DNA of 64,000 nucleotides, from the NCBI GenBank assembly GCA_008632985.1, contig QPGO01000137.1, positions 62,001-126,000 on the forward strand. The letters run 5' to 3'. Positions 1 to 62,186 of this stretch are shown here, in pieces; position 1 is the stretch's first letter; every line of letters starts with the position of its first letter. Both the position numbers and the translations under genes were made by a program. The notes below the pieces were generated by a model. It saw nothing but the letters and a program-made list of their open reading frames with translations, made no database searches and was not told where the DNA came from. Source of the DNA: Psammoneis japonica. Taxonomy: Eukaryota.

Positions 1-1589
1 TAGTCCAATTGGTCCATCAGGTTGTGAACTGTTCATTTGGTTGTCTTTGTCACTGCCGCTGTGGCACCAAATCAAATGTGCTGCCACAACTTGAAAAACA
101 AACAAATTCGATGAACATTCTCAGTCAAGACATTGCGCACTGAACCTCACGCAGATTTCTGCGTGATCATCACAGTGCGTTTTCTGCGCTGGTTGCAATG
201 GCCATCTGCGGTTGTTTTTGACAACTTCTTTTGATTTGACAACTGTGCAAGTGGCGCTGATTGAACATGCCAAGCAGATGTGACATGTGATGCAAATGAC
301 ACAGTGAAATGTTGTGCAGATCTTCCCAAAACAGAGCTGTTGCATTTTTGCTCTTCTGTTGAATCACACAAAGTCATTGCACAAGGCAGGCAAACAAGAT
401 GATTGTGGCACGCCAGCTGTCCTGTGTGCTGATTGAAGTGCGGTGGATTTAACACGCTTGTTTTTGTTTCATTCGCCTGAAGCTCAAGAGGTCAAATTGG
501 CCTGAGAAGCATGTGCACAAGCTTGACAGTGAATGAAATCACTGCGCAAGTCTAAAATTTTTGTTCTGATCAAAACAGAAATGACGCCAGTGCACTGGTC
601 AGAGCATTCCTGTTCAAATGGTGTCACTTTTGTTGTCACAAGTTGGAACTTGGCACTTCTGTGCACCGCCATTGTCATGTTGCATGTCATTTGGTCAGCA
701 ACAACTTCCACATTTTCATGTCTGTCGATGCATGTTTTGTGTTTGTTGTTTGTGGTTTGTCACAGAGATTGCAAAAGCATGGGCTCAAGCTCAAGAAATG
801 AGCTGGTGTGAAGGGCCACCACGTGAACCCCATTTTGCAAATGTGGGTTGGCCTGCTCATCTTTTTGCTGTCTTTTCTGCGTGTGTTTGAGTGAAGGGAG
901 AGGTGTTTCTTTGCCATGATGACTGCACCGGCAGCTGAGTTGTCTGAAGAATGTGATGATTTCAAAGAATGTGATGATGTTGTGAATTGCAACTCTAGAT
1001 GCAATGTTGCCAATTGCAATGGCAGTTGAAAAAAATGATGCCGCTGCAAATCGCAATTGCCACAAAACAGGTTGTTCCATTCTGAAGTGGCGTCCACCTT
1101 GTTGCATGACTTCACGGCAGATTGTGCAACACACGAGCATCAACAGATTCAAGGAGGGAATGATGTGAGCCATGCACCAACAAATCCATCCGGAGTGGCT
1201 CAATTTGAACACGGTGAAAAACACTTGAAGGGTCACGAAAATCCACAATCTGATGGACAGATGACAGACCAAATGTTCGCCAAAAAGGTCACAAATCGGC
1301 ATGCATGAAATTGTCCTGAGTCATGCACGCCAAACATTTCTCTGTTGAGGCGACACACCAGCCTGTTTCTTGAACTTGAGCCTGTGACAAAAGGAGGTGC
1401 CATGCAATTGGCTGAAAGACAAACAATTTTTGACCAGCTGGGCTGGAAAAGTTTGTTGTTCATTTGTTTGTTTTTTTTGCAATGGAAGGTCTCAGGAGTT
1501 TCGTTTCTGGGTGCACCTCCGGGTTCCCCACCAAATTTCTGCCATCATTTTCAAAGACCGTGCCGTGGCCATTCACATGGTCAAGGCAT

Positions 1590-2700
1590 GATTTGGGCAG
1601 CTGACAGAGCAACAACGGCACTGCTGCAGAAAACATTGCATCAATGCAACATCAGAGTGAACTCACGGGCATTGCTGGCTCTGACAAGGTGAGCTGGTGA
1701 ACAGATGATCTGTCTTTTGATGTCGCTGTGTGTGTGTTCTCCTGAAGGTGCTCCTGGCTCCAGTGTCTGGGACTGTCGAGGAGAAAGAAGACACCCAAAT
1801 GCCTTCACGTCACTTGGATGGTGTGATTGATTCAAATCTTGTTGGGTTCAGATGCTCCTTGCATGTGCATGACCGGTCCTTGCTTGAACCAGATGGTGCT
1901 GTGAAAAAGCAGATTTCCGTGCCTTCTCCAAGGCATGAATCGACATCATGCACACAACATGTGGCCACCCGACAAAATGCCATCCATCCAAACAGGCTTC
2001 CCACTTTCACAGGGCAGGATGCAAGAAGGACAAGATTTGGCCAATTGCCGTGAGAGCTCACATTTGCAGACCTTGCTTGGCATCGCGCCAAGGAAATTGA
2101 CAAGATGATGATGGAATCTGTGCAACAAAAGGCAAGAGCACTTGAGTGCTTGGTCAATCAAAGTGCACTGCTGGCCCAACTCCAACACAACATTGAAAAG
2201 TTTGCAATGGAGTTCATGCCAGAAGATGCAAAGGGCGCAATTTCTTTTGAAGTGGCGCCGACCTGCGCTGCTGACCCCTGCCTCACCCAAGTGCTTGTCT
2301 CTGGAGCGGCAGGCTTCATTTTGTCAGGTGATTCTAACTTTGCCATGCATGTTGGGCCAAATGGGAGCACAGTGGGGGATGTGATGCTGAAAGATCTCAA
2401 GCTGACAACCACAAAGGAGCCTGTTTGCTCTTGCAAAGTGCGCGCAGGACATGAGCTGATTGCGGGTCGCGTCCTGCAAATGAAGCTTGGGCACGATGCT
2501 TTCTGTGTGATGGTCATTGCTGCACTCCTGAGATTCCAGTCCTGAGCGGTGTTGAAGATCCAATGGTCAGGGCACTCACAGCTGTTGTGCTTGGTTGCGA
2601 TGTTGTCCCTGGGGGGCTGCGCAAGGGTCTGGGCCCAGTGCCGTCGCGTTGCTGCTGCAGAGGCACTCGGAGTGACCGCACAGCAGTTGTGCAAATCTTG
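1590..2700 (+). pseudogene. XPG/FEN1/EXO1-family (PIN-like) 5' nuclease relic
   Basis: Motifs in the expected order across frames: VIDSNLVGFR (XPG-N-like), FEVAPTCAADPCLTQ...ILSGDSNFAMHVG (XPG-I AP-EAD...DSD-like), and AVVLGCDVVPGGLRKGLGPV at 2581-2640 (H3TH GCD motif). Interrupted by stops and frameshifts. Confidence 0.65.
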
Positions 2701-3114
2701 ACATGAATGGAATGTGAAACGTGTCCAGTTTTCTTGGTTCATCAAACAAGGGTGTCAGGACCAGCTGTGGGATGGACTCTCTGCGCTGACATTTGGGAGG
2801 CATTTTTGTTCCGTGTGTCAGTTTCATGAGCGGCAATTTCGCAATTTCCGCTGATCCTCTCTGACAGACATCATGACATTGCGTGCTGCTGCAAAAAAAA
2901 AATGGCAGTGAGAATCGAGCATTTCGCAAAGCTTGGGCCACAGTTCTCGCGAAACAAGTGCGAGTCCATGTGCCATGCTTCATCACGCATGATGCAGGCT
3001 GAAAGCCCCCGAGGGAACCCGGAAGGGCATCCAGAACCCCAAAGCAAAGAAACGAAGGACAGACACAGGGGCGACTGACAAACCGAACCCGATGGCCATC
3101 ATCAGACCTTTTTC

Positions 3115-3675
3115 ATTGACCACTCAGTGGTTGGTGATTGCAGACTTTTTCGTGTCGGTCCGGCAGTGGGGCAGTCGGGCAGTCGGGTTGTCCGTCTGAA
3201 TTTGAAAGTGTGTCCCTCGGATTTTAGAACGGGATGGGTTGTTTGGTGCAGATGAATTCTTCGGATTCGCAGAATGATCATTGAGGACATGAGAGGTCGT
3301 GGGGACATCCTAAAAAATCGATAAATTCCCTGCGACGGGTGCGTGGCACGGTTTTTCAGGAGAGCTTGAAAGTGCTGTAAAACTGGGATTGCCGGCGTGG
3401 CATGTTGAAAAATGCACTCAGTTGCAAACAAAGACAATTGATCGTGAACTCTACATGAAACAGTCACATTTGGGAAAACATGTCAAACAACAAGTGAGTT
3501 TGTGTGATGCGCCATTGTGGCAATAAATTGGAAAAAAAAGAGTGTCCGTGCACCTTGCTGCAGCCACCGTGCGGTGGCCACACCGCTCAGCCGCTGGGGC
3601 CCCACGCACGTGCAGACAATGCAGCATGCAACGGCACACACCCACACCCACAAAAGTGAAAGACAAGTGGTCAAT
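3115..3675. mobile_element. Non-autonomous TIR element, short relative of the element at 43820-46210
   Basis: Ends are ATTGACCACT...AGTGGTCAAT. 3115-3565 matches about 45770-46210 in reverse complement, and 3610-3681 matches about 43814-43875 in reverse complement. Confidence 0.8.
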
Positions 3676-3745
3676 GCTCCCCGCAGGCCTGGTTCACATT
3701 TTTTGGGGAGGCGGCAACCTCAGCGCAACGACGAAGCCGACAAGG

Positions 3746-5191
3746 ATGGCTGCGGCAATTGACCTTGAGGCGTTTTGCTGCGAGGGCTCTCACAGCAATT
3801 ATGATTCGTTCAAAGCTGGGAACGGGTTCGGCCCCTTCGTCATTCAAAGGAGCACTCTTTGCAACGAAATCGTGGGCTTGGCTTCTCCGATTGTTTCCAT
3901 TCATTTAAGTGGTTGCAAAGGTGCTGGGAAGACCACCCTGTTGAAATTGATCAGCAACGACCTCGTCAAAAATGGAAAGAGAGTCTATTTTTTTAAGAAA
4001 TCCAATGACATTGACATCTGCCAACGCGAAATTGGGTGCATTCTTGCCAAGAAAGAGGAGGCACACTTTCTGATTGATGAAACACAAGTGAATGTGAACT
4101 CGTCAATTTTCACGCTGTTGCTTAAAAATGATGAAGATCACCGCGTCACCACAATTGGAGCAGGTGTTCCTGCCTTCGAAACAGCCTCAAGTTCCTTTGC
4201 ATTGACGATTGCTGCGAATCACTTGTTCTTGACGTTGGAAGATCTTCAAATTGAGGGCGTGATTGACTTTTTAGCCGAGGATGTCATGGAGGCTAGCATT
4301 GGAGGTCGCATTGAGCACCTGCTGGAGACTGTGCGCTTGCATGTTGGAGGACACATCCACCCTTTGATGAGGCTTGCCGAACTGCTTGTGCCCAAACTCA
4401 AGACGGAGGGCCACTCCACCGATCGGGCCATCAGTCACTTGAATTCGGCCAAGTTTCGCACTTTGCTGCCTTTTCGGCTCCTTGCTTCCAGGATCACTCC
4501 AGCTTTGCAAGATGTCAACATCCGCACAGTTTTTTACCCAGAAGAATGTTGCCTTGGTCCAGAGGTTCAGCAACTACAAAAGCGTGGATTCTGTGACTAC
4601 AATGGCAGTGTGACATCGATGTTGCTTTTCGACCTTTATCTTGGGAATGTTGGGACCGCAAATTCCTGTCCTTTCACTGGTCTTAATGCTGGTGTTGTTG
4701 GTGTTCAGGAGCTGCTTTGTTGGGGTGTGCCGCGCATGTCTTGGACACACTACGAAGCCCATGGAGGGGCCGTCAAAGATGCGCTGACATTCGAATTGCT
4801 GAGAAAACTTTCAGACTTCAAGCCGCTAAAAGTTGTGCTTTTCAACCCTAAACTCGTTGCTGCTGGAATGGCAGCACGGCAACCTGACACACATTTTGAC
4901 TCTGCTGCACACTCTTGTGTCGAATGTGTGCTTGCCAAAGACAACACTCGGTCATCCAGACAAGACGTGGAGAAGCACATTTTGCGGTTCTTCACACATG
5001 ACAATGCTCAAACTGCGCACTGTGAAATTCAGGACGCCAACTTCGCAGTCCTGCACTTCCAAGACTGGGGAACGGCTCCAATGCAGCTGCAGGATGAAAT
5101 CTGTCGAAGGTCTTTCAACACAAGAGTCTTTGCTTTCTTGATGAAAACAAAGGAACTCTGTTTGGGTGACACGTGTCTTGCAAGCCATTAA
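3746..5191 (+). CDS. P-loop NTPase plus C-terminal PD-(D/E)xK-like nuclease (Crinkler/RHS-type NTPase-REase architecture); frame open but partly hypermutated, function doubtful
   Basis: Walker A GCKGAGKT, Walker B-like FLIDE, helical GGHIHP segment and C-terminal QPDTHF...VECVL. The ORF track extension to 3542 runs through the upstream TIR element, so ATG 3746 (MAAAIDL) is the likelier start. Confidence 0.6.
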   Translation: MAAAIDLEAFCCEGSHSNYDSFKAGNGFGPFVIQRSTLCNEIVGLASPIVSIHLSGCKGAGKTTLLKLISNDLVKNGKRVYFFKKSNDIDICQREIGCILAKKEEAHFLIDETQVNVNSSIFTLLLKNDEDHRVTTIGAGVPAFETASSSFALTIAANHLFLTLEDLQIEGVIDFLAEDVMEASIGGRIEHLLETVRLHVGGHIHPLMRLAELLVPKLKTEGHSTDRAISHLNSAKFRTLLPFRLLASRITPALQDVNIRTVFYPEECCLGPEVQQLQKRGFCDYNGSVTSMLLFDLYLGNVGTANSCPFTGLNAGVVGVQELLCWGVPRMSWTHYEAHGGAVKDALTFELLRKLSDFKPLKVVLFNPKLVAAGMAARQPDTHFDSAAHSCVECVLAKDNTRSSRQDVEKHILRFFTHDNAQTAHCEIQDANFAVLHFQDWGTAPMQLQDEICRRSFNTRVFAFLMKTKELCLGDTCLASH

Positions 5192-6169
5192 GAAGACCGC
5201 CCCATTTCTTCCCTCTTCGTGGCTCTGAACAGGAAAATTGCCCGAAACAGACAAATTTTTACCTCACTCAGATTAAGTCGAATAGACGGAATCTGTGATG
5301 CACAAAACACGCTGGTGAGAAACAGGCATGCCACAGCCAAAGTGAACCCAACACCAGTCAAGAGTTTTTCTGTGTCTTTTGCCGCAACCTCACGTTCTTG
5401 CTTCATTGATCTGACGCAATGGGCGCACCTGCTTGCCCTGCTTTGACCCGAGATGTGCTTTGTCTGTGAAATCCAAAATGCCCTGTCATGCAAAATGACT
5501 TCTGCAAACTGTTGGGCCTGCTGCCAAAGCACCCCTCTGGAGCAGTGCCACTTTGGCGCATGTTCTTTTGCATTCTTGGGCAACTGCGGCTTCAACTTGA
5601 TGTTTCTGCTTCATTCCCAGCCCTTGGATGTCCAGACAAATGTGCGCGCATGGTTCAAGGTTCAAGATGACAAGCTGTGATGCTGGAACTCCAAGGAAGG
5701 TCAGGTGGTGGCAACTTGTTTTTCAAGGAACAGCCTTGTTAAAAACATCATGTCACACTTCTTGACAGCAAGTGTTGCCATTTGTGCCATGGCATTTGGT
5801 GCTGACTTGACCATCAAATTCTGGCCTTGCACTTTTAAGGATGGATCATCCAGATGAGGCATTTCTTTAATTGGCTCGTGATTTTGCAATTTCCCTGCAC
5901 TTCGCTCGTGTTGTTTTGCGATGCCTCTGAGCACCCCCAAACACATGTGACTGTGTCCAGACCCCATGCATCAGGGCTGTTGGATCCATGTGTGAACTGC
6001 ACATTTCAACCTTCAAATGCCAGTTGTCAGATTTGGTGCAGTTGTCACATTCGACAAACCGCTGTTTTTTTTGCCAAAATCGCACTGCTTGTGGGAGACA
6101 AGCCACAACTTTCCAGGAAAAGCCGACAGTTGGCGTTTGACTGGCCACAGACATGTCTGCAGTCGTCAA

Positions 6170-6601
6170 GGTCATGGTGCGGGTGCAAAAGTGGGCCAGA
6201 TTCTACGTGCGCAGAGCTTGGCATGTTTTCCACACAAATCGCCAAAGTTGGCTCGCCAACTTGAACCCTCTCCAGGACAATGGAAACTTGGACATTTCAC
6301 ATGACAAAGTGTTTTGACTGCTCAATCACACTCTCCTCAACTTGTTTGGGAAGAGAAGTCACAAGTTTTCACAGGTTTCTGAGGACACACAACGAATCTA
6401 ATCAGAAAGGTGCCGAAATCGTGATGTTCGAGTTTTAAAGAGCCACACAAAACGAGTCCAAACACTTTGTCATGTGAAATGTCCAAGTTTCCATCATCCT
6501 GGAGAGGGCTCAAGTTGGTGAGCCAACTTTGGTGATTTGTGTAGAAAACATGCTAAGCTCTGCGTGCGTAGAATCTGGCCCACTTTTGCACCCGCACCAC
6601 C
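6170..6601. mobile_element. Foldback/MITE-like element with about 145 bp TIRs
   Basis: 6176-6319 is the reverse complement of about 6456-6599. Begins GG, ends CC, flanked by TCAA (6166-6169) and TCAA (6602-6605). Confidence 0.8.
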
Positions 6602-6605
6602 TCAA

Positions 6606-7104
6606 GGATGGATCTACATGCTGCGGTCTGTTTTTTGGGAGCTCGCAATTTTTGTAAAAACAACCCGGATGCATCGCAGCAAATGCGCGTGCATTCGCAA
6701 AAAAAATTTCAGTGATTGGTCGAACTTTGTCCATTCGCCAGACACCCCAGAATGCTCAAACGACAGGTGTGACCATGTGCGACTTTTGCCTTGACGACTG
6801 CAGATGTGTCCATGGCCAGTCAAATGCCACTCATCGGCATTTCCCGGAAAGTTGCTGCCAATCTCCCATGAGAAGCCCAATTTTAGCAAAAATTGGCGGT
6901 TTTTTTGACCTGACAACAGGGCATGGGTCGACAAGTGGCATTTGAAGCACTGAACGTGCAGCTCTTGTAGCCATCTGACAGCCCCTGTGAGGGTTTGACG
7001 AACGCAAAAGTGTTCGGGGGTGTTCCGAGGCAGGTCAAAACAACACGGTGAAGTGCGGGAAATGCGAGCCATTTTAAATTAGACCGCAGCACGTAGATCC
7101 ATCC
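6606..7104. mobile_element. About 500 bp non-autonomous TIR element, TTAA-type target
   Basis: TIR GGATGGATCTAC(A/G)TGCTGCGGTCT at both ends, flanked by TCAA (6602-6605) and TTGA (7105-7108). Confidence 0.8.
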
Positions 7105-9989
7105 TTGAGCTAAAGATCGCGCATGGTCACAACCATCGCCAACACATTCCATGATGTCTTTCGAAGGGACAAAGTTCGGCCCATCGCTGAAAACATTTTG
7201 TTGGCGAGCGTGCATCCAGTGCAAGAAATCCGGGTTTTTTCCAAAAAAATGCAAGCTCATGCACAAACAGACCTCATCTTGACGATCCATCCTCAAATCA
7301 TTCTCCTGTTTTGCTGACTCACCAGTGTTGTTAAGGGCGGCCATGCTGCTGGGTCAATTGCTGTCAGACGCTGATTTCAAAAACTTCGCACATTTGGCAA
7401 TTGTGGGGTGGAATTTCCGAGCAACTCTGTTGAGCCAAGCTTTGCTCCAAGATTTTCCTGCCAAAAGGATTTTCCTCACATTTTCCGTGCACTGCCAAAA
7501 AAATGTGCTCTCTGGAGCAGAGAGGAGCGGCACAATCCAGAAATCAGCACTCAAGTCAAGTGCCGCCAAAAAAATCAAAGACTGACATCATGATGTTTTC
7601 TTGCTGAACAGCTCAAAATCTTGTCAATCTGCTTCCACCAACCTGAGAACTGTTTGTTTGTAAGAAAACAAGCTCCCAGTGCAAGAAAATCTCAGTGGTC
7701 ATGCGCGCTGTTGCGCGAGTGAGACCCCATGCAGAACAGGTTGTTTGTGCTTTTCTGCATTCTCCGGAGTGACGTGCAGACCAGACTGAGATTGCCCGTA
7801 GAACGTCAGCACAAACAAGCAAAAAATCTGCTTCATTTTTCTTGTAAAATGGCCAAAATTCACTTTGCTCACCCGACATGATGTCAGTTTTTGAGTTTTT
7901 CAGTGGCACCTTGCTCAAGTTACAAAACAATTTGGCAAAAAAGTCATGAACAACTTGCTGCCCACTGCAACACCCCTCCCTCCTCCAAATTTCATTTTTA
8001 AAGTGGGTTCAGGAACATTCAAAAAAGGGCAATCCATTGCTGGCTGAATCTGGTGAGATGCCGGAAACAAGCTGAATTTGTTGTGCCAACTTTTGTTTTT
8101 CAAAGACATTTTGTTCTTGACAAAAAGTCACAGACAACCCATTGATGTGAACAATGCATTTGTTTGACATCAAGTGTGCAAGTCCTGTTCATCCCAGATT
8201 TTTTTTGTTTGAAGCAACCAGAAACAAGATGTTGGGTGCACACACAATTGTGTTGATGACAGCATTGAGGATGCTTGTTTGAAGATGATGTTTTCTGTCA
8301 AGATCAAGTCTTGAACAAGATTCAATGCTTCCACAAGAAGTCTTGCACTCAGTGCTTCAACACAGTGTCTTGCAACAAAGACTGTGTTCAAGAACTCACC
8401 GCACTTCAGAAAACATGTGGCACATTGCTGTCACACTTGGTGGAAAGCAGATTTTGTCCTTCTGCAGCAAGCAAGCAAATGACTTGCTCAATTGCCTGTC
8501 CCAATGAATTGTTGCAAATGCAAATTTTGACATGCCTGGCAGGATGGTGCTTGCCTTTTGTTTGTTCTTCAACAGTTGGGAACTGCTCAGAAAAACTTGC
8601 TGCCCCGCTGCATGTCAACAATGAGTCTGGCCATCAGGGCTCTTGTGTCACCCAACTGAGAGACCAAGCCACGTCAACAGCAGCAGTCTTGATTGCTTTG
8701 ACTGCAAGGAGGCCACCCAATTTCTGCCATTCTCAATCAAAACAATGAGCTTGCCAAGGCTCTTGGGTGGACACTCTCTGTGCTTGTTGCCACTGTGTTC
8801 ATCATCTGATGCAGCCATGGTGAGAAAATGCTGCCACTGCTTAGATTTTTGGCATGCATTGTTGTTGCTGCCTGTCCTCTTCCTCCTCTCACCAGGTTGA
8901 ATGCATTGGGTGCAAACTGGTGACACAAAGACAACAAACAGTGCAAGAACAACTTGGTGGCAGAGACAACAGATTTGTTGTGGAAGACACACACAGAGCC
9001 AGAGCTGCGATGTCATGAAATGGATGCCAAGGCCACCAAAGAGCAAAAAGAAGCAGTGTCTTGCACATGCAGCAGCCATCCTCATCTCACCAGGTTTGAT
9101 GCACTCTCTGTTTTTTCTTGGCAAACAATCAAGAAGAGAGGCACAACCATGGGGGAGGATTTGGATGGCAGTGAAGCTGCAGCACACAACTGTTGCATGC
9201 ATGTTCATGATTGCACATCATTTGTGTGTCAATTGTGCCACAGTCGTGGACACGTGCAAAGGACAGAACGATCACACAGAGTTGATCAGATGTCGAAAAT
9301 TGCAAATACAATCAATTGACAATGTTGACATCTTGCGTGTCAACAGCAATCGTGTCTGGACAATCTGTTGTCACAAATGCATTCTCCGAAAGGCCTTTTG
9401 TCTGTGGAAGCAGCACAGAAGCTTTGGGCCATTGAGAACTCATTCGGAGAAACCAAAAAATCACAGAGCAAAATTTAATCTCACAATTTTCACTTTTCAT
9501 GCTTGACTCCACTTTCATTTGTGCTCGTTCTTTGAGCACAGTGCATTGTGCATGCACACCACAGAAGGCAAAAACACGGAAAATGAAAATTTTGGCTGAT
9601 GTGCCTTTGCAAATTCTTCCATGAGCAGGCATGAAATGCACTGGTTCTGCTGGAATCGATTTCCGAGTGGAAGCAGCTCAATCCGAACAGTGCCTCAAGA
9701 TGGAACTCCATTTTTCATCTTCAAGACAAAAGGATTTGTTCCAATGCGATCCATTTCAAGCACCTCATGATCAAGGACTCTGCAAGTGCACAGCATTGTC
9801 AAAAATCCTCACCAAGTCATGGTTGGGCAGAATCTCAAGTGTTGAGTCAACCAGGTCCGAGAAATGCATCTGCCATGCAAGGAGAGACCATTGGAGAGAA
9901 TTGGGAGACCGAATCAACGAGCCTTGAGTCTGAAGACCAAGAAGAAAGTGTTGAAAAGTGCCTCAAGAGTCTCTTGTCTCATGTCTTCT

Positions 9990-54791: not shown

Positions 54792-55292
54792 CTATAAAAA
54801 ATATGAACACATTTTATGAATCTCCCTCGAAAATGCCAACTGCGCCTTGGCAGGCGAACTGGCTTGCGCATCCACCATGTGCTGCTGCACAAGCTCCAAA
54901 AAGTCGTCGCATTCCTCGGCAGCGTTCACAATGGACACTCCGGGCTGCGAAAAGACAATCTCGTGCTTGGCATCGGAGTCCGCCATTTTGATGTGAATCT
55001 TGCACACGCTTTCCTTCTTTCTACTTCCGAGCCATCTGTCACCAGGAACCTTGGCCTTGGCAATGTCACACGAATTGATGTGACGCGGGGTGCTTTTGCC
55101 CGACACGCTGCGAATCAACAGGCGCTTCGTCGTCAAGGAAATGAGGACGCGCTCGTCTTTCCCCAAACGGCGATGGAGCGCTTGAGTTCCTTCTCGCCGG
55201 AGGTGCTTCGGGTAATTCAAGGACAGCCAACATGGCATTTTAGGTACACGATGGTTGTATGAGAAGAGAAATTTCAAATGATATGAGTCCAA
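54792..55292 (-). CDS. Coding fragment of unknown function (possible PH-like fold)
   Basis: 166 aa ORF with protein-like composition and CpG retained; no clear start and no RbgA similarity. Confidence 0.35.
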   Translation of the reverse strand: MDSYHLKFLFSYNHRVPKMPCWLSLNYPKHLRREGTQALHRRLGKDERVLISLTTKRLLIRSVSGKSTPRHINSCDIAKAKVPGDRWLGSRKKESVCKIHIKMADSDAKHEIVFSQPGVSIVNAAEECDDFLELVQQHMVDAQASSPAKAQLAFSREIHKMCSYFL

Positions 55293-55399
55293 TGTAGCGC
55301 CTCTCCGGATTGCATTGATCGCGGTCCTCGGGAAAAATGTGAGCGCATGGGTTGTGCCTTATCCAGAACCTAGGATAATAAAATTTTTTGAAATCTGAA

Positions 55400-56242
55400 C
55401 GGCTTTTCATCATAAGCCAAGACTAACGCAGCATCTTGGTCCTCCATGTTTGCGGGGATAATACCTGGACTATCCCGTCGTTCCTTAGGCCACGTCGTTG
55501 ACGTCGCTTCTGAACATAGCGCCCGCCTTGTAAGTGACTTTGGTAAGGGCAAAAATCCCCTGTCCCTGTTTGGCGTTGACAGATAAGACCGAGTGAAACG
55601 GCGACACACTACTCGAGTTTGGTGTCTTGTAGTTACCGCCCTTGGTTTGTTGATATTTTGCTTGCTGCGCTTGATTGGCTACTTGTGCATTGACCTCTCC
55701 ATCCCATCGCTCGACACCTAATGGACAGCGGAGACACTTGATCGGCATGGGTCAATACAACAATACGAGGTTTGCCCGAACACCACTCTGCCACACGCGG
55801 ATCAGACGTGGCTTGTACCGCACGAGCATCCCGCGCTTCGACAATGACATCCACGGCTCGTAGCATTTCCGCCAATTGACGTTCCGCCTTGGAAATGTGA
55901 CTGGGATACCAATTTGCAGAGGGAAGCTTGTATCCAGAACGCTCGTAAATGGCGTCTCCTTCGCTACTTTGAGTGGGCGTGTCGCTGTAGAGCCGAGATG
56001 TTTGTAGCGCAGATTTCTCGGCGAACGGGTGTTCTTCTGCTCACTGAAAATGCACGGAAAAAACAGCTTGGTATACTTCTTGCTGAGCCAGCCATTGTTT
56101 GTGGTGAATACATCAAGCCTTGAGTGACTACGCGGATAGAAGCAGTACCGCGATGTTTGTTCTGCACAATGTTCTCTGGCGTGATGAAACCATGAGCTTT
56201 GCGAGCTGCAAAAGAGGACCAAAACTTGCTCTTCTTCTTCAA
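55400..56242 (-). pseudogene. RbgA/YlqF-family circularly permuted GTPase, frameshifted and lacking the P-loop segment
   Basis: WYPSHISKAERQLAEMLRAVDVIVEARDAR, KPRIVVLTHAD, VNAKQGQGI, then the RRG region joined directly to DSPGIIP. GxPNVGKS is absent. Confidence 0.7.
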
Positions 56243-56589
56243 AGTTTTAGAGACTTTATTATCGAAGAATAAACAATGATCAACAGCTCAACGCATAACG
56301 CACCCTTGAATGAAATTTTGTCCAAATGCCAGGGTGCATGTCAATTTTGTCAACGCACCCGCTCAATGTTTTTTTCAATTTTCTCTTGTCATTCGGTCAG
56401 TAACACGAGAACTTAGAATGCTTACTTCATGCTTGTATACTCGACTCAGTTTCAAAATTTCGAAAACCAGACCCAACGTCCCTGTACAGTAGATCCTTTC
56501 CCCCTACCGTATCTTGCCCGTGTTCTTATGGGCTCACAATATATTGCCAAAGGTGCAACAAGAAGAAGTTTACACAGCAGCATCGCACA

Positions 56590-57711
56590 ATGCGGTTCAT
56601 CTTACCGGCGGTTAATCTCATCATCACCCTCTTGTGCCTCACGCCTCGGGCTGTTGAAGCGAACGAGGCTGGCGTAATAAATCTATGTGACTTCTGTTCT
56701 ACGGCACCCCTTTGCTTCGGTAGTGAGGGTTTTTGCAACTTTCAAGAGCAATGCTGCACAATAACTACACCCTTTTCGGTGTGCAGACAGAATGCTCGGG
56801 ACGACTGTGAAAATACCGCAAGTCGTTGCAATCGAAGGTGCGATCGCATTGCAACACGTTCGGCTCGCTTTGCGTGTCAAACACAGTGTGCTGCCAACGA
56901 GAGAGACTGCCAAACGTCTGTTTCTAGGTGCAGCACATGCGCGTGCTTGCTTGTTGGTGAAGGCTGTGGAGATCAATGCGATTCTCGCCGCCTCAATCAG
57001 GAAGCGCGACACCGTCTTCAACTTGAGGAGCCCAACGATGTTAGTGACGAGTGTTTACAAAAGCCCCACATCACCAGTGTCGGTTTTGATGAGGGCCACC
57101 TTTCTATCTTTGCCCTGCCCGAAGATTGGCCTGAAGGAAAGGAACTTGAAGATGCCACGGATGGGGACTGCTTGCCCCTTGTCTTCCACCAGGCCTTTAC
57201 ATCGGAGAAGCAGATGCTTCCACGAAGCCCCAACTCGTATCTTGACGGAGCCTTGTTTCCATTGGGAAGATACAAGTTGGTTGATGTTTTGGAAGCTTAC
57301 GACAAGTTTGACACTGCTGATTCGGAATGGGATGTTGTCACAAACAACTGCGCAAACCTTGTCCTTGAGATAATGTTCTCCCTTGGCCTTGAAGCTGAGG
57401 ATGCGGGACTTGACTGGATCAAAGCCCAACTAATGTCCACAGATGTAAATATCAGGAAAGTACTACAGTGGGTTTTGGAGAGTCCAAACTTTGACTTGTT
57501 GGAATTTGATGAAGAAGATGACCCCGATACAATCGAGGAGCAGGTGATTGAAGCCTTGGTGGACACCTACGTTGACAACTATAAGTCAACGAAAGGCAAG
57601 GGCAAGGGCAAGAAGTCATCCAAGAAGTCCGGGAAGGGAGGGAAGTTATCCAAGACGTCATCCAAGAAGTCCGGGAAGGGAGGAAAGGGAGAAAAGGGAA
57701 AGAAAGTGTAA
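56590..57711 (+). CDS. Secreted protein: Cys-rich N-domain, RRL motif, putative permuted papain-like (PPPDE-type) domain, Lys/Ser/Gly-rich silaffin-like tail
   Basis: Signal peptide; densely spaced Cys; SRRLNQ and HRLQ; GHLSIF...WDVVTNNCANLV; tail KKSSKKSGKGGK repeated. Confidence 0.85.
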   Translation: MRFILPAVNLIITLLCLTPRAVEANEAGVINLCDFCSTAPLCFGSEGFCNFQEQCCTITTPFSVCRQNARDDCENTASRCNRRCDRIATRSARFACQTQCAANERDCQTSVSRCSTCACLLVGEGCGDQCDSRRLNQEARHRLQLEEPNDVSDECLQKPHITSVGFDEGHLSIFALPEDWPEGKELEDATDGDCLPLVFHQAFTSEKQMLPRSPNSYLDGALFPLGRYKLVDVLEAYDKFDTADSEWDVVTNNCANLVLEIMFSLGLEAEDAGLDWIKAQLMSTDVNIRKVLQWVLESPNFDLLEFDEEDDPDTIEEQVIEALVDTYVDNYKSTKGKGKGKKSSKKSGKGGKLSKTSSKKSGKGGKGEKGKKV

Positions 57712-58169
57712 AGAAAAATGGAACCGGGGAACATGGTGCCATGCTGTGGTTGGGGCAAATTGTTGTCGCGTAATCTCAAAGTTGGATCATGCCTTCGCTC
57801 TTGTAGTGCGGATGTGGCAATCCGTGTACAAGTCTATGCTCCTGTAGCACATAGCAGCACAGAACAATTTTCTGTTAATCGCGCGATAGGTGTCGTTTCA
57901 CTTCATCCTCTCTAGACAGTAGAGAAGCGCTTACTGGCATTGACTTTGATTTCTAGAGAAGCTGTCAGCTTCGACCATAGCTAGATGGTCTTACAAATAT
58001 TCAGTTCACTCCCCTGTTGACGGTCTTGGAGTCTTCGGCATGAATGAGAAGCGAAGCAGTTACCAAGAACGCTTTGAGATCCACTGCACTCTGTTGATGC
58101 TTCTGAAAAAAAGCCAATGACCAGGACTCAGTTTTCTTACAACAGCATTCTGTAGACAAGCTGCGGTTT

Positions 58170-58990
58170 CACAAATGGCCATGGCACAATCTTCACCAGG
58201 CAAGGTGGCATTGTGTTGGCATGTTGGCAAGAATTTCTTGAAAAACAACAAGAGTGTGACTCGGGTCAATGTGCAACCAGAACCATTGCCACAGTTTCTC
58301 TTTTGAGGTCTTTCAAGGAGGCTGACAGTGGGGCCACCCATGCAGATTGGCTTTGTGTCATCAAGTGTTTCACTGTGGCTCTTTAGATTTTTGAGAATCA
58401 CAAACATGTCATCTCTGCCAGTGTGAAAATGGTCACTTTCATCCAGACAGTGGTTGTGTGCACAAGCCCACACACTTTGAACCTTTTGCCACATGTTGAT
58501 GTGTGCTTCTGGGCCCAAATGGGTCAAATCAACATCTCTGACCTGTGGGTCCATTGTGTTGAATGCCACCACAAAGCTGTCACACCTGCAAACCCATGTT
58601 TCCCAAACAGCTTGCAAAACTCCTGTCAACTCAAAAGCGCACACTCCATGCAGAGCAATTTCCACTCATTTGTTGCAGACATGACAATTTTCTTGAGTGC
58701 CTTGCAAGCATTCATGCTCCCCTCTGTGCCCAACCCAGGGCTCTGTCAGTGCTTGTTGGAAATCATGTTTGCTGAACAGGAATGAAAGAAAGTTGCATCA
58801 CAAGCATGCCTCACCTTGCCTTGTTGATCTCTGGCACCACCATGAGGACAAGTCTCCATGGGCAGCTCTTGGAGAGAGCAGATGACTTGTTGTTGACTCG
58901 CTGGTTTCTTGCACAGCTCTGTGTCTGCTTGGGAGCTGTTGTTCCACATGGCTGGTTCCAAGAACATTGCCAGGAGCACCACTGAGCCAA
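58170..58990 (-). pseudogene. Hypermutated partial duplicate of the GT31 gene at 32287-33471
   Basis: Collinear nucleotide match to about 32570-33340. GPEAHINMWQKVQSVWACAHNHCLD versus GPEAYINMWQKVRSMWAYAHDHYLD. Confidence 0.95.
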
Positions 58991-60139
58991 AGAGTTGGTC
59001 TCCAAAAAGTGATTTGGTGATGGCAAGGCTGCGGAAGCTTTGCAGGCCCCCAGTTGCACAGGGGCAGTGGCATGATGGGTGAGGCCAAAATGGTGCCACA
59101 GGGGGGGTCAATGGGTTTTCTCATGTTTGACAAGTGCCAACTCAAGTGCAATTTGACCAACCTCTGTTGTTTTCATGTGACCCCATGTGATTCCTGTGGC
59201 ACCTGCAAAAGCCCAGCAGGAGCTGAGGCATCAATGCGCAGAACTCCCAAATTAACTTTGCTGTCCTGCTCCACAAGTGATGCAGATTGCTCCTGGTTCT
59301 CTAACTTCTGCTTTCCACCCACTGGCCTTCCACATGTGCCCTCTTTTTCAGTGACACCAAATTCTGTGAGATTCTTGTGTCTGCTCTTTTTCTCCCACAG
59401 CGGTCTGGCTTGACTCAATGACAACAAACATTTCTACTTGTGTCTCTCAAAATGCACACATCTTGCAAAAAAACACATTTTCCATTGCCTTTTTCTTCTT
59501 CCCACAACTTTTTGATGTTGCGACAGCTGCTGCCACCTTTTCACAATCCATGACAAACAAATTTGGAGTTGCCACAATGCCCCTTGGGCTTTGATGCATC
59601 CAGTGTTTCCATCTCTTCTTTTCCTCTCAGTTTTGTTGCACACTCTGGAAAATTTTAATTTCCATTGTCCAATTTCTGTTTGCAGTTTCCAGGACATGCT
59701 GCTTTGAACATTGTCTGTTTGCTTGTGGAGCAACTGCAATGGTGCAGATTTGCCATGGGTGGCTCTTTGGCTCCCAAAAGCAAACCCACCATGTGCAGAG
59801 GCTCTGGTCACAGTTGCACAAACAGAAAGCATTTTTAGAATGCAGTCAAGAGCTCAGCCACTGCTGCTCCATCCCCCCAGTGGTGTCATCAGCCCCAATG
59901 GATTTTGCCCTGACTCAACAAGGTTTTGGTGCAGATGGCAATTGCATGGCAGCCAGGGACACATGGCATTTTGTCATGTTTTCAGACAGACCTGATTGTG
60001 CGAGACTCCTTTGCATGGATTGAATCTCTGCAAGACATCAATTGTTCATTGCAGACAATTTGCAACAAATGCATGTGCCAAATGAACATGCAATCAATGA
60101 TTTAAAATTCAACACACACTCAGCAAACATCCACATGTT

Positions 60140-60745
60140 TCAGCAGCACAATTTCATTGTTTGGCAATTCTCCTTTTGCCATGGAGACAAAATTTCTTTC
60201 TCCTTTTGTTGTGGAAACAAAATTTTGTTGTTGACAACAAACAACAACAAACAGTGACAAACGGAGACAAATGCAAAATGACTCATCCAAGACACAACAA
60301 CACAAATGGAGACAGAGACAAAACAGATGGAGACAATGGAGACAAATTGGTCAAAACTGAGACAAAAAATGGGCTCTTTAACTCCATGCTGTGCCACAGC
60401 AGTGCTGGCAGTGCTTGCAGCAGTTTCAATTTATGGCTTGGCAGATGTCGGTGCCGTTGCATGTCCATCTGTCCTGTCATCAATGAATCTGTTGGTTTTG
60501 TCTCCAACTGGCAGGTGCCAGTGCCATCATGTGTCTGTCTGTCCTGTCATTGGTCAATCCGTTGGTTTTGTCTTGGTCTGTCTCATCAGAGACAAGATTT
60601 TCCTGTCTGTCTCCCCACTCATCTCTGTTTGTCTCCATTTGTTGTCGACAACAAAATTTTGTCTCCACCATTTGTCTCACCACAAAATGTGCTCCCATTT
60701 CAAAAACAGAGACAAATCGCCAAACAAAGGAGACTTGCTCACTAA
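60140..60745. mobile_element. Decayed foldback/MITE with GAGACAA subterminal repeats
   Basis: GTGGAAACAAAATTTTGTTGTTGACAACAAA (about 60211) is the reverse complement of TTTGTTGTCGACAACAAAATTTTGTCTCCAC (about 60638). GAGACAA repeats on the left, TTGTCTC on the right. Confidence 0.6.
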
Positions 60746-62186
60746 ATGACAAAGTGGCGCACATGTTGATGGGCAACATTGGCTGTGGTGGGGCCACTTG
60801 GTCGTGCACATTTGGGCTTGATGTGACTGTCCAACTGGCCATGCCCTGCAGGAATGGCTGTCAGTGGTTGGTGGAGCACAAGCAGAAGTTCAAAGCAAAA
60901 AACATGTGTGGGTCAAAATGTTGCAAAATGACACAAGAAAAAACCCAACTTGACCCAGGAATGCAGTGCATGAACATTGTCCAATTGCACTGATCTTCTC
61001 TGGAAATGCCGACCAGCAGAACAGTGAGTGGCACTTGCATTGCTTGCCATGGCATTGTTGCACATTTTGCCATTGTGCTGCAGTTTGCACAAGAAGGACT
61101 GGGCTCTGTTTTGCCAACAGCAGGTCTTTTTTGGCAACAGTGGATGTTTTGCTGTGTTGAATCTGAAGACATTTTGAGAAGCACTTTGCAATGACCCCAT
61201 TCAGTGCACATCAAAGGCACAAGAAAATTTGGTGACACACAAAAGCCTCAGAGACCAACTCAAATTCACATTGCCTGCAGACCAAATGGGTCGTGCACTG
61301 GCAAAAATCCACTGCCTGTGAAGCACAGCACTGGAAAAGGGAGACAAGCAAGAAGGAGCCAAGGTTGGAACAAACAAGTGAAGAAGACACATGAGAAGAG
61401 ATTGAGCAAGGATGCAGGGCAATGCAATGAAATGTGGTCCCAGAAATTCTGGAAATGCATCTGCCACATGGAAGAAGCTATCATGATGGACAGAACAGTC
61501 GATGAGTTGACAATGGAGAATGATGACAACCTTGATGAAGAGCAGGAGTTGTGGTTTGCTGCAGAAGCATTGCAGACAGCAGTGCAGTTGATGTTTGGTG
61601 GTGATTTGCAGCCAAAAAATGAGTCATTGGGGGGGGGGTGTTGGTTGGCTCCCCAAAGAGGAGGTGGTGAGCAAACAAGCAGCCAGGGGTGCCAAGCAAG
61701 ATGGTTGATGGTGAAAGGGATTGGGTGGATGCCAGCATCATTCAAAGAGGTGATCACAGTTGTTCCACATTGTGTTTTGTGGGTGCCATAAAATTTCCAC
61801 TTGGTGCTCGCATGGTGTGTGTGCCTTTTGTGACTCTCGCATGCCTTGTTAGCACAAACAGCAGGGCCGTTTCGTGCGGCGTCATTCACCAAGGGATGCG
61901 GAAGGAATGACAGACGCCTGTTGTAGATACACAGTAAGCTCAGAACCGCTTTTCGATTTTAAAATAAGTGCTACTCCATAGTGCGTTCAGCAGTTCTCTA
62001 GCTTACAGTAATCTTTGAACCTAGTTTAGTGCGGTATGTTGAATGTTTCGAATGCTTGTCTCTAGAGCATAGTCTTGATCTTGCATCAGAGAGACGAAGG
62101 GGTGCAAAATTCAGAAGCAGAAATGTGGATGCAGACCACGGCAATGCATTTCTAACAGAAACCTCAAGCTAGCTAGCTAAAAAAGC

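What the first reader, a model, noticed from the sequence alone, without database searches (positions are those of the whole stretch)
1..61920. Candidate new genome-defence system: 'reverse-RIP' TpA to TpG/CpA hypermutation of repeats in a diatom-like genome
Seen: six sharply bounded blocks (about 45 kb) have almost no TpA. Wherever their content can be identified it is transposons or duplicated or relic genes, while the intact genes between them have normal TpA. Conserved Tyr positions of copia and GT31 proteins read His (CAY) or Cys (TGY). Established: fungal RIP and 5mC deamination cause C:G to T:A changes, and RIP creates TpA; neither removes it. Inference: a repeat- or heterochromatin-directed A:T to G:C mutator acts here alongside CpG decay, and both funnel into TpG/CpA, so GC content hardly changes and GC or RIP scans would miss it. 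Candidate mechanisms are DNA adenine deamination by a TadA/ADAT-like enzyme, mutagenic processing of a modified A or T, or pol-eta-type error-prone repair after 5mC deamination. I know of no description of this process but could not search the literature.
Basis: partly seen in the sequence, partly recalled or inferred. Interest (0 to 1): 0.97.

Follow-up and report, generated by a model that had tools for sequence, protein, structure and literature searches.

The report
TpA-erasing hypermutation in diatom repeats
In this diatom genome, repeat and dead-gene DNA has had nearly every TA step and most CG steps rewritten to TG or CA, the footprint of a targeted A-to-G mutator that I found reported only once, in an unrelated alga.

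Summary
Seven HMM segments (45,095 of 64,000 bp; six blocks, one split by a young MITE) hold 147 TpA (obs/exp 0.05) and CpG at 0.29, with TpG/CpA at 1.8. The gene islands between them read 0.57, 0.90 and 1.2. The four YpR values sum to 3.93 against 3.91, so TA and CG were converted into TG/CA. An intact GT31 gene and its dead copy give direction: 0 of 22 TA survive (12 CA, 6 TG) and 1 of 31 CG; 0 of 15 Tyr remain, 11 now His/Cys. Repeat copies resolved the same sites independently: CA versus TG makes up 45 of 67 adjacent double transitions. High-depth accurate-read contigs reproduce the bases, so a base-calling artefact is unlikely. New here: flank dependence (RTAY hot, TTAA cold), which predicts the mutated strand in 13 of 15 cases. 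Eight searches found nothing for diatoms, CpG coupling or flank rules. The enzyme is unknown; a TadA/ADAT-type DNA adenine deaminase is my leading guess. The copia Tyr claim could not be reproduced.

The parts
1..12833 (.). Depleted block 1 (TA obs/exp 0.076, CpG 0.48). Heterogeneous: 3001-8000 is only partly depleted (TA 0.10-0.17, CpG 0.43-0.82).
3542..5191 (+). Open 549-codon frame, a relic or decaying copy of an AAA/STAND-like P-loop NTPase gene. Tyr is 1.1% against 1.9-4.0% in 10 homologues. At 12 columns where at least 5 of 10 homologues have Tyr, it reads Y2, H4, C3, F3.
12834..18191 (.). Normal island with four long ORFs on the minus strand (13308-17776). TA 0.57, CpG 0.87.
18192..21911 (.). 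Depleted block 2 (6 TA in 3,720 bp; TA 0.027, CpG 0.21).
21912..24686 (.). Normal island with a DUF2358/SOUL-like ORF at 22917-23618(-).
24687..28744 (.). Depleted block 3 (8 TA; TA 0.03, CpG 0.16). 26542-27098 is a repeat copy of 51852-52398.
28745..30180 (.). Normal island with ORF 28994-29776(-).
30181..31713 (.). Depleted block 4 (3 TA). Its left rim, 30181-30340, is TA-free but still CpG-rich.
31714..34645 (.). Normal island around the intact GT31 gene.
32287..33534 (-). Intact GT31-type galactosyltransferase gene (415 aa). Its best relatives are diatom proteins at 45-48% identity. It is the parent-type copy used to give the mutations a direction.
34646..49534 (.). Depleted block 5 (42 TA in 14,889 bp; TA 0.04, CpG 0.26). 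Read depth is multi-copy over 44001-49312.
40837..41379 (-). MULE transposase domain relic (Pfam PF10551, E 1.6e-8, 35.3 bits against cut-off 27.6).
49588..49978 (.). MITE-like element with imperfect terminal inverted repeats of about 30 nt. Composition is normal (23 TA, 27 CG). Summed read depth is about 124,000 against about 60 for single-copy DNA. It is a young insert inside the depleted DNA.
49963..54389 (.). Depleted block 6 (10 TA; TA 0.038, CpG 0.20). Contains a very high-copy piece (50636-51081), a weak RVT_2 trace at 51026-51448(-), and the repeat copy 51852-52398.
54390..58153 (.). Normal island with ORFs 54792-55292(-), 55752-56222(-) and 56590-57711(+).
58154..61788 (.). Depleted block 7 (11 TA; TA 0.042, CpG 0.10). 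Read depth is mostly single-copy.
58150..58994 (-). Dead, truncated GT31 copy (aa 66-329 of the parent type, one frameshift, two in-frame stops). DNA identity to 32548-33339 is 80%. Its detectable homology ends within about 20 bp of the D/N border.
61789..64000 (.). Normal island with a LON-substrate-binding-domain ORF at 62187-63302(-).

Best explanation
The blocks are repeat, transposon-relic and dead-gene DNA of a diatom nuclear genome. They have undergone, in place, a regionally confined and dinucleotide-specific hypermutation.

(1) A:T>G:C transitions occur only at TpA. Either strand's A is hit, giving TpG or CpA. There is a clear flank rule: TA followed by T or C is most vulnerable and TAA least, so RTAY is hot and TTAA cold.

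(2) CpG>TpG/CpA decay occurs in almost the same domains.

Genes and their short flanks are spared, with borders sharp to tens of bases. The signature is the same as the TpA-only hypermutation measured in Bigelowiella natans.

Shown here: the conversions, their direction, their independence among copies, the flank rule and the borders.

Inferred: that the agent is an enzyme directed to silenced chromatin. My leading guess is a TadA/ADAT2-type deaminase converting adenine to hypoxanthine in DNA, with the CpG loss coming from deamination of 5-methylcytosine on methylated repeats. Also inferred: that the net effect is to disable mobile and duplicated DNA.

Roughly 0.9 that the mutational process is real and region-targeted. 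Roughly 0.35-0.4 that the agent is an adenine deaminase.
For: Composition. D against N: TA 0.05 v 0.57, CG 0.29 v 0.90, TG 1.81 v 1.21, CA 1.78 v 1.23. The YpR sum is 3.93 v 3.91, and the other 12 dinucleotides differ by at most 0.14.

Direction. In the intact GT31 gene against its relic, 22 TA sites give 0 kept, 12 CA, 6 TG and 4 other. 31 CG sites give 1 kept, 15 CA, 11 TG and 4 other (the shorter BLAST-delimited alignment gives 19 and 30 sites with the same pattern). Transitions per site are 17/38 in TA and 27/60 in CG, against 26/313 at other A/T and 34/294 at other G/C. A>G by 5' base: TA 19/44, AA 9/103, CA 17/137, GA 6/110.

Protein level. GT31 relic Tyr 0/15 kept, 11 now His/Cys. NTPase ORF: 7 of 12 conserved-Tyr columns read His/Cys.

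Mutation came after copying. In four aligned pairs, CA-versus-TG makes up 45 of 67 adjacent double transitions. In the pair 51852-52398 / 26542-27098 it is 20, against 9.6 expected for all eight types together if sites were independent.

In the very high-copy piece, part of the family depth (12-69% at four sites) carries TA where the window copy has CA or TG.

Flank rule. Surviving TA in D against TA in N: TTAA 5.45x, CTAA/TTAG 2.9x, ATAC/GTAT 0.05x, ATAT 0 against 46; chi-square 144.7, 9 df. The rule predicts which strand changed in 13 of 15 non-tied relic sites, p 0.0037.

Both strands are hit about equally (TG 1.81, CA 1.78), so the process acts on DNA.

Real bases. Run X1 contigs at word depth 40-66 cover six pieces within the D blocks (7,695 nt) with 21 other letters.

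Precedent. In the B. natans mutation-accumulation lines, 230 of 231 single-nucleotide mutations in the two viral regions were A>G or T>C, and all of these fell on TpA, at about 1000x the background rate.

U at -1 is also the stated preference of fungal A-to-I editing (abstract start in the listing, PMC11156358).
Against: No enzyme, no methylation data and no whole genome were available, so the targeting cue and the chemistry are not shown.

Ongoing activity is not shown. A roughly 390-bp MITE present at about 2,000 times single-copy depth sits inside a block with normal TA and CpG. Repetitiveness alone therefore does not trigger prompt mutation, and the process could be old or episodic.

Only one paralogue of the GT31 pair is mutated.

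TE identity of most of the 45 kb is unproven. Pfam found one significant domain in 224 ORFs of at least 90 aa and none in 115 shorter ones.

The +1 order T>C>G>A does not match what I recall of ADAR (3' G preferred), and it matches ADAT2/3 tRNA substrates only in part.

The platform of run X1 is not on record and it may be the assembly's own sample, so it is not fully independent.

CpG loss and TA loss are partly uncoupled. At 3001-8000, TA is 0.10-0.17 with CpG 0.43-0.82, and TA-free rims 100-280 bp wide keep their CpG. One agent for both is therefore not favoured.
Confidence: 0.6

Rival explanations
1. The target is thymine, not adenine. A TET/JBP-like dioxygenase oxidises the 5-methyl group of T in TpA (to 5hmU or 5fU), and of 5mC in CpG, within silenced chromatin. 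The oxidised bases mispair with G (or with A for the cytosine products), giving T>C at TpA and C>T at CpG. One chemistry on 5-methylpyrimidine-purine steps would explain both losses.
For: Both erased dinucleotides are 5-methylpyrimidine-purine steps if CpG is methylated, and their domains nearly coincide. The flank rule is symmetric. 'A followed by T>C>G>A' is the same data as 'T preceded by A>G>C>T', so the sequence cannot tell the two targets apart. The mispairing of 5-formyluracil with G is recalled, not from a call.
Against: TA loss and CpG loss are partly uncoupled (3001-8000, and the block rims). No evidence for such bases or enzymes in this organism was available. The only experimental precedent proposes adenine deamination, also without proof.
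Confidence: 0.15
2. Error-prone patch repair. Deamination of 5mC makes T:G mismatches, and non-canonical mismatch repair with a pol-eta-type polymerase resynthesises patches and misinserts opposite T at WA motifs. TA loss would then be a by-product of CpG decay.
For: TA and CpG depletion share domains. The pol-eta WA hotspot includes TA (recalled).
Against: Specificity is for TA only: A>G is 19/44 at TA against 9/103 at AA, and AA obs/exp is higher in D than in N (1.26 v 1.16). TA is lost faster and further than CpG, including where CpG is largely kept. In B. natans the mutations are TpA-only, and the preprint does not mention CpG (0 occurrences).
Confidence: 0.07
3. RNA-level A-to-I editing (ADAR-like, or fungal TAD-type) of transposon transcripts followed by reverse transcription, so that elements arrive already mutated.
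For: U at -1 is the preferred context of known A-to-I RNA editing (preprint Discussion; listing abstract). Element-delimited sharp borders would follow naturally.
Against: Both strands are hit equally (TG 1.81 v CA 1.78), and the strand is set by local flanks (13/15). A single sense strand would be expected instead. The targets include a DNA-transposon relic (MULE) and gene relics. TA loss is essentially complete. The +1 order is the reverse of the ADAR 3' G preference (recalled).
Confidence: 0.03
4. Sequencing or assembly artefact: a modified base at TpA and CpG is miscalled, or a polishing error occurred.
For: Systematic miscalls at modified motifs are known for some long-read base-callers (recalled). 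The platform of run X1 is not on record.
Against: k-mer contigs of run X1 at depth 40-66 reproduce 7,695 nt within the D blocks with 21 differences. Noisy reads could not give this. The GT31 relic also carries transversions, indels, a frameshift and background transitions, so it is old diverged sequence and not a miscalled twin. CA-versus-TG discordance between copies needs real, independent changes.
Confidence: 0.03
5. Intrinsic composition: the blocks are foreign or viral DNA, or DNA under selection against TpA and CpG, and were never mutated in place.
For: Some viruses avoid UpA and CpG (titles seen in the listing).
Against: The relic derives from a resident diatom gene family, and every TA of the parent-type copy is changed in it. 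The relics are non-functional (stops and a frameshift). The YpR mass balance matches conversion. No viral domain was found.
Confidence: 0.02

Closest known systems
TpA-specific hypermutation of integrated NCLDV and virophage DNA in Bigelowiella natans (Mettrop et al., bioRxiv 10.64898/2026.01.13.699255; abstract, Results and Discussion read)
   Same: Transitions TpA>TpG/CpA on both strands, confined to particular non-host-like regions. Long-term footprint of low TpA with high CpA+TpG in clusters enriched for RT and DDE domains. An adenine deaminase (ADAT2-like) is proposed.
   Different: That case is a chlorarachniophyte (Rhizaria); this one is a diatom (stramenopile). There the depletion is mostly partial (NCLDV region Rho TpA 0.45; 124 clusters defined at Rho <=0.43). 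Here it is near-total (0.03-0.08) over 70% of a 64-kb window. CpG, flanking-base preference and diatoms are not mentioned in the main text; its supplementary tables were not seen. Conversely, that study has measured rates (about 6e-7 per site per generation), and here no rate is measured.
Repeat-induced point mutation (RIP) of ascomycete fungi
   Same: Heavy, sharply bounded transition mutation of repeated and duplicated DNA that destroys coding capacity and spares unique genes.
   Different: RIP is C:G>T:A, mostly at CpA, and so creates TpA and lowers GC. Here TpA is destroyed, CpA is gained and GC is unchanged. Here only one of two paralogues is mutated, and a roughly 2,000-copy MITE is untouched.
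CpG decay by deamination of 5-methylcytosine on methylated transposons
   Same: Explains the CpG>TpG/CpA half of the signal. Diatom TEs carry repressive marks (passage read in PMC4504042).
   Different: It cannot remove TpA. Methylation of these blocks was not measured.
A-to-I deaminases with a 5' U/T preference: ADAR, fungal A-to-I mRNA editing, TadA/ADAT2-3 on U33-A34 of tRNA, and TadA-derived adenine base editors
   Same: The edited A is preceded by U/T and the outcome reads as A>G.
   Different: The natural ones act on RNA. A natural enzyme that edits chromosomal DNA at TpA has not been demonstrated. The +1 order found here (T>C>G>A) is not the ADAR order (recalled). Family assignments are recalled apart from the preprint's discussion and one listing abstract.
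APOBEC3-type cytidine-deaminase hypermutation of retroelements
   Same: A host mutator that disables mobile DNA with a short sequence context.
   Different: It gives C>T at TC/CC on one strand of cDNA. Here non-CpG C>T shows only a mild spread by 5' base: TC 14/79, AC 10/85, CC 8/82, GC 5/75.

Membership tests
B. natans-type TpA hypermutation | Mutations are A:T>G:C transitions confined to TpA, giving TpG or CpA | tested here: met
   0 of 22 parent-type TA kept in the relic, 18 now CA/TG. A>G is 19/44 at TA against 5-12% after other bases.
B. natans-type TpA hypermutation | Confined to discrete regions of foreign or mobile origin while host genes keep normal TpA | tested here: inconclusive
   The regional confinement is clear. 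The content is MULE, a weak RT trace, gene relics and multi-copy repeats. No viral gene was found, and most of the 45 kb is unidentifiable.
B. natans-type TpA hypermutation | De novo rate about 1000x background, measured in mutation-accumulation lines | not testable with these tools
   Only a footprint is available. Saturation (all TA lost while background transitions are 8-12%) gives only a lower bound.
Fungal RIP | C:G>T:A transitions, mainly CpA>TpA, raising TpA and AT content | tested here: not met
   TpA 0.05 and CpA 1.78 in the blocks. GC 48.2% against 46.7%.
Fungal RIP | Triggered by duplication, with both copies mutated | tested here: not met
   The intact GT31 copy has normal TA while the relic has none. 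A very high-copy MITE is unmutated, though at about 390 bp it may lie below a length threshold.
5mC-driven CpG decay | CpG>TpG/CpA in methylated DNA | tested here: inconclusive
   The conversion is shown (30 of 31 CG lost, 26 to CA/TG). Methylation was not measurable.
ADAR-type RNA hyperediting fixed through reverse transcription | A>G on one (sense) strand of retro-copied sequence, with 3' G preferred | tested here: not met
   TG and CA gained equally. The strand is set by flanks (13/15). The +1 order is T>C>G>A.
Pol-eta WA-motif repair mutagenesis | A>G at both TA and AA | tested here: not met
   TA 19/44 against AA 9/103.
TadA/ADAT-family DNA adenine deaminase as the agent | A deaminase gene present, nuclear, and active on TpA in DNA | not testable with these tools
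   No genome is held for this window. There is no deaminase gene in the window (Pfam).

The most novel reading that the evidence does not exclude
Diatoms and chlorarachniophytes share an old, dedicated genome-defence pathway. In it a natural DNA adenine deaminase with RTAY specificity is guided to silenced chromatin and, together with 5mC deamination, erases both self-complementary YpR steps (TpA and CpG) from mobile, viral and duplicated DNA. This would be a 'reverse RIP' that leaves GC content unchanged and has therefore gone unseen. It would be the first natural chromosomal A-to-G editor, and it would be present across at least the SAR supergroup.
Probability: 0.3. Interest if true: 0.92.

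Novelty: new variant of a known kind. Interest (0 to 1): 0.8.

Why it matters
- The only experimental report of TpA-directed hypermutation is one 2026 preprint on a chlorarachniophyte. Finding its saturated end state in a diatom would extend it to a second major lineage, one of great ecological weight. It would show the process can reshape most of a genomic region, not just two viral inserts.
- No natural enzyme is known to edit adenine in chromosomal DNA; the adenine base editors were engineered (recalled). The flank rule found here (RTAY hot, TTAA cold) is a concrete specificity to look for in candidate enzymes.
- There is a practical consequence. The mutated DNA is nearly invisible to homology tools: one significant Pfam domain in 45 kb. 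It is also invisible to GC or RIP indices. It has almost no TAA/TAG stops (79 and 38 against 1,126 TGA), so it throws up long false ORFs. Repeat annotation and gene prediction in such genomes will therefore be biased.
- It gives a clean natural system for asking how a mutator is confined to within tens of bases of active genes.

Tried and rejected
- Whole-genome analysis: no genome is held for this window.
- TE identification by Pfam. 224 of the 275 stop-to-stop ORFs of at least 90 aa were scanned, namely those lying in the depleted blocks. 115 ORFs of 40-89 aa from three blocks were also scanned. Only MULE passed its cut-off. RVT_2, HNH_5, Zn_ribbon_4 and C4 were sub-threshold.
- Homologue searches with the RVT_2 trace and the MULE piece ('longer') found nothing. 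A Tyr-fate test on copia or MULE proteins was therefore not possible.
The Atlas gave only AAA_35-like and Crinkler-associated neighbours.
- RNA evidence: no RNA holder was listed for the stretch.
- Rfam and tRNA scans of the window and of the high-copy region found nothing. My by-eye impression of a tRNA-like piece near 50.9 kb is dropped.
- Same signature in other diatom-like DNA. 79 metagenomic loci around GT31 relatives show none at the strict threshold (0 of 4,688 windows). One shows a mild 1.2-kb block (L076). These contigs are gene-rich and poor in repeats, so this serves as a control and is not evidence of absence elsewhere.
- Tetranucleotide gain analysis agrees with the flank rule in 5 of 6 flank classes, but it is confounded by CpG-derived products and by the unknown ancestral composition. 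I give it little weight.
- Terminal repeats that would delimit the blocks as single elements: none convincing.
- Earlier findings of this scan: nothing on this genome. The one hit on 'TpA depletion' concerns a phage and does not bear on this.
- Literature: eight searches found only the B. natans preprint for this signature and nothing for diatoms. Two further attempts failed on term syntax.

Full report
**1. Observation**

The window as a whole has TpA obs/exp 0.21, CpG 0.46, TpG 1.64 and CpA 1.62. A two-state HMM on TA positions splits it into seven depleted (D) segments: 1-12833, 18192-21911, 24687-28744, 30181-31713, 34646-49534, 49963-54389 and 58154-61788. Together they cover 45,095 bp. 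Seven normal (N) segments cover 18,905 bp.

| | TA count | TpA | CpG | TpG | CpA | GC |
|---|---|---|---|---|---|---|
| D | 147 | 0.05 | 0.29 | 1.81 | 1.78 | 48.2% |
| N | 762 | 0.57 | 0.90 | 1.21 | 1.23 | 46.7% |

The other twelve dinucleotides differ by at most 0.14 between D and N. The four YpR values sum to 3.93 in D and 3.91 in N. This is what transitions that turn TA and CG into TG and CA would produce.

As a control I fetched 79 metagenomic loci (512 kb) around relatives of the window's GT31 gene.
- 463 of their 465 1-kb windows have TpA obs/exp of at least 0.3, with median 0.67 and minimum 0.195.
- 0 of their 4,688 600-bp windows have TA at or below a tenth of expectation, against 369 of 635 in the window.

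Borders are sharp. TA recurs every 20-40 bp up to the border and is then absent for 200-700 bp.

**2. Organism and content**

The intact ORF 32287-33534(-) is a GT31-type galactosyltransferase. It has 278 relatives, and the best are at 45-48% identity. Those that carry names are from diatoms: Nitzschia, Amphora, Bacillariaceae, Skeletonema, Thalassiosira and Cylindrotheca. Long uninterrupted ORFs fill every N island.

The D blocks are almost opaque to homology.
- Of 224 stop-to-stop ORFs of at least 90 aa in them, one has a significant Pfam domain: MULE transposase, 40837-41379(-), E 1.6e-8.
- Three have sub-threshold hits. One is RVT_2 at 51026-51448(-), E 0.0048.
- 115 shorter ORFs gave nothing credible.
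- Two homologue searches from these pieces found nothing.

What can be identified otherwise:
- a truncated dead GT31 copy at 58150-58994(-);
- an open but decaying AAA/STAND-like NTPase frame at 3542-5191(+), with 186 homologues, the best at 54% identity;
- internal repeat pairs;
- multi-copy read depth over 44-52.6 kb.

**3. Direction of change**

I aligned the relic with the intact paralogue (785 aligned sites, 80% identity).

| Parent-type sites | n | kept | CA | TG | other |
|---|---|---|---|---|---|
| TA | 22 | 0 | 12 | 6 | 4 |
| CG | 31 | 1 | 15 | 11 | 4 |

The shorter BLAST-delimited alignment gives 19 TA and 30 CG sites with the same pattern.

Transitions per site:
- in TA: 17/38
- in CG: 27/60
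- other A/T: 26/313
- other G/C: 34/294

A>G by the 5' base is 19/44 after T, against 9/103 after A, 17/137 after C and 6/110 after G. The specificity is therefore for TpA, not for WA.

TG>CA and CA>TG double changes (9 and 6) fit a two-step path through the unstable TA or CG states.

At the protein level:
- None of 15 aligned Tyr survives in the relic. 4 are His and 7 are Cys. The relic also has a frameshift and two Arg>stop changes.
- In the NTPase frame, 12 columns have Tyr in at least 5 of 10 homologues. There the window reads Tyr 2, His 4, Cys 3 and Phe 3.
- Its Tyr content is 1.1%, against 1.9-4.0% in the homologues.

**4. Mutation after copying, not a TA-free consensus**

In four aligned pairs, CA-versus-TG accounts for 45 of 67 adjacent double transitions (20, 5, 4 and 16). 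In the pair 51852-52398 / 26542-27098 the 20 such sites compare with 9.6 expected for all eight double-transition types together if sites were independent.

Twenty discordant sites in 534 bp imply about forty ancestral TA+CG sites. That is close to the density in N-type DNA. Most conversions in these two copies therefore happened after they separated.

In the very high-copy piece around 50.7-50.9 kb, part of the family's read depth carries TA where the window copy has CA or TG. The fractions are 5,299 of 17,122; 11,292 of 16,320; 2,604 of 21,220; and 6,093 of 12,201.

One search lists 40 differences, with 170 more not shown. 33 of the 40 lie in D:
- 8 are four CA>TG doubles;
- 9 are TA in one copy against CA/TG in the other;
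- 4 are CG against CA/TG;
- 12 are other changes.

This is a 'best supported' subset, so I use it only as illustration.

**5. Are the bases real?**

Run X1 is held as k-mer contigs, dated 2019, with the library not on record. It holds 0.89 of the sampled words. It covers six pieces within the D blocks totalling 7,695 nt, with 21 other letters, at word depth 40-66. It covers N pieces equally well.

Noisy long reads could not yield such contigs, so a base-caller artefact is unlikely. X1 may be the assembly's own sample, so it supports the bases but is not an independent strain. The transversions, indels and background divergence of the relics also show old, real sequence.

**6. A flank rule (new here)**

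Surviving TA in D, relative to TA in N, by tetranucleotide with both strands pooled:

| Context | Ratio D/N |
|---|---|
| TTAA | 5.45 |
| CTAA/TTAG | 2.9 |
| GTAA/TTAC | 1.27 |
| CTAC/GTAG | 0.85 |
| CTAG | 0.74 |
| ATAA/TTAT | 0.58 |
| ATAG/CTAT | 0.22 |
| GTAC | 0.19 |
| ATAC/GTAT | 0.05 |
| ATAT | 0 (0 against 46) |

The heterogeneity is strong (chi-square 144.7, 9 df). The values are roughly additive per strand. They rank the base 3' of the target A as T>C>G>A. Equivalently, they rank the base 5' of a target T as A>G>C>T.

An independent test uses the relic. Which strand changed (TG or CA) is predicted correctly at 13 of 15 non-tied sites, p 0.0037.

Survivors may include newly regenerated TA, so the ratios are not pure survival rates. 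The preprint's main text mentions no flanking preference.

**7. Relation of TA loss to CpG loss**

The two domains share borders to within about 200 bp, but TA loss is the more complete and reaches further.
- Rims 100-280 bp wide are TA-free yet keep their CpG, for example 30181-30340.
- At 3001-8000, TpA is 0.10-0.17 while CpG is still 0.43-0.82.
- CpG survival varies little with flanks: 0.2-0.6 of the N level.

I read this as two processes aimed at the same chromatin rather than one enzyme. The CpG half is plausibly 5mC deamination. Repressive histone marks on diatom TEs are documented (passage read in PMC4504042). TE methylation in diatoms is recalled, not taken from a call.

**8. What is targeted**

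Targeting is not by repetitiveness as such. A MITE-like element of about 390 bp at 49588-49978 has imperfect terminal inverted repeats. Its summed depth is about 124,000, against about 60 for single-copy DNA. Yet it has normal TA (23) and CpG (27) inside a depleted block. It is either young, too short, or exempt.

Only one of the two GT31 paralogues is hit. The relic's detectable homology ends at about 58150-58171, within about 20 bp of the D/N border at 58153. A 47-nt tandem repeat straddles another border, and only its D-side copy is stripped of TA and CG (31655-31701 against 31711-31757).

So the unit of action follows sequence or chromatin units very closely. Whether the process is active today is not shown.

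**9. Mechanism**

The equal gain of TG and CA, and the choice of strand by local flanks, place the event on double-stranded chromosomal DNA with each strand hit independently. That argues against RNA editing followed by reverse transcription.

TA-only specificity argues against pol-eta WA repair. Non-CpG C>T shows no strong 5' context, which argues against an APOBEC-like agent.

Two options remain:
- (a) Deamination of adenine at 5'-TA. This is favoured because known A-to-I enzymes prefer U/T at -1 (listing abstract), and because the tRNA substrate U33-A34-C35 of TadA is a TAY context (recalled).
- (b) Oxidation or another modification of thymine at TpA that mispairs with G.

The sequence cannot separate them, because the flank rule is strand-symmetric.

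**10. Literature and novelty**

Eight full-text searches returned one relevant work: Mettrop et al., bioRxiv 10.64898/2026.01.13.699255. I read its abstract, Results and Discussion but not its supplements.
- In B. natans mutation-accumulation lines, 230 of 231 single-nucleotide mutations in two integrated viral regions were A>G or T>C, and all of these fell on TpA. The rate was about 6e-7, against 3.5e-10 elsewhere.
- 124 genomic clusters were TpA-poor and CpA+TpG-rich.
- An ADAT2-like candidate enzyme was proposed.

The kind of process is therefore known, from a single preprint in a different lineage. I found nothing on diatoms, on coupling with CpG loss, or on flank preference.

I rate this a new variant of a known kind, of high interest. 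It is a saturated, block-wise instance in a stramenopile, with a defined extended motif and very sharp borders.

**11. Limits**

- One 64-kb window.
- No genome, RNA, methylation or rate data.
- TE identity of most of the D sequence is unproven.
- The directional test rests on one parent-relic pair, and the protein-level test on two gene families.
- The sequencing platform of the supporting run is unknown.

Noticed in passing
window 49588-49978: MITE-like element of about 390 bp with imperfect terminal inverted repeats of about 30 nt. TA (23) and CpG (27) are normal. Summed read depth is about 124,000 against about 60 for single-copy DNA, which suggests thousands of copies. It is inserted in TA-free DNA.
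   Followed up: partly
window 50636-51081: Two 109-bp direct repeats (95% identical, 50636-50744 and 50973-51081) flank a piece with summed depth of about 62,900. It has no TA but keeps CpG fairly well. There is no Rfam or tRNA match.
   Followed up: partly
window 31655-31757: A 47-nt tandem repeat straddles a block border. The copy on the depleted side (31655-31701) has lost the TA and CG that the copy 10 bp away on the normal side (31711-31757) keeps.
   Followed up: partly
window block edges, e.g. 30181-30340, 18192-18360, 12550-12833: Rims 100-280 bp wide that are already TA-free but still carry normal CpG density. The TA-depleted domain is slightly wider than the CpG-depleted one.
   Followed up: partly
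window, all depleted blocks: TAA (79) and TAG (38) are nearly absent while TGA is frequent (1,126). The blocks therefore contain many long spurious ORFs, such as 10779-12173 (464 aa) with no family match. This is a trap for gene predictors.
   Followed up: partly
window 6175-6319 / 6455-6599: A 145-bp inverted repeat, 93% identical, with a 135-bp spacer, inside the partly depleted part of block 1.
   Followed up: no
window 60211-60257 / 60622-60668: A 47-nt inverted repeat (83% complementary) 364 nt apart, with short tandem repeats around it. It may be another small TIR element, this one already TA-free.
   Followed up: no
L076 4001-5200: A microbial-mat metagenome contig carrying a distant GT31 relative has a block of about 1.2 kb with a milder form of the same signature (TpA 0.21-0.26, CpG 0.25-0.44, TpG/CpA 1.6-2.0). 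This hints that another organism may show the same thing.
   Followed up: partly
window 13980-17776 and 54792-57711: Several intact long ORFs in the normal islands have no Pfam family. They include Cys-rich, signal-peptide-like proteins (14981-15847, 56590-57711) and a Lys/Gly/Ser-rich tail at the end of 56590-57711.
   Followed up: no
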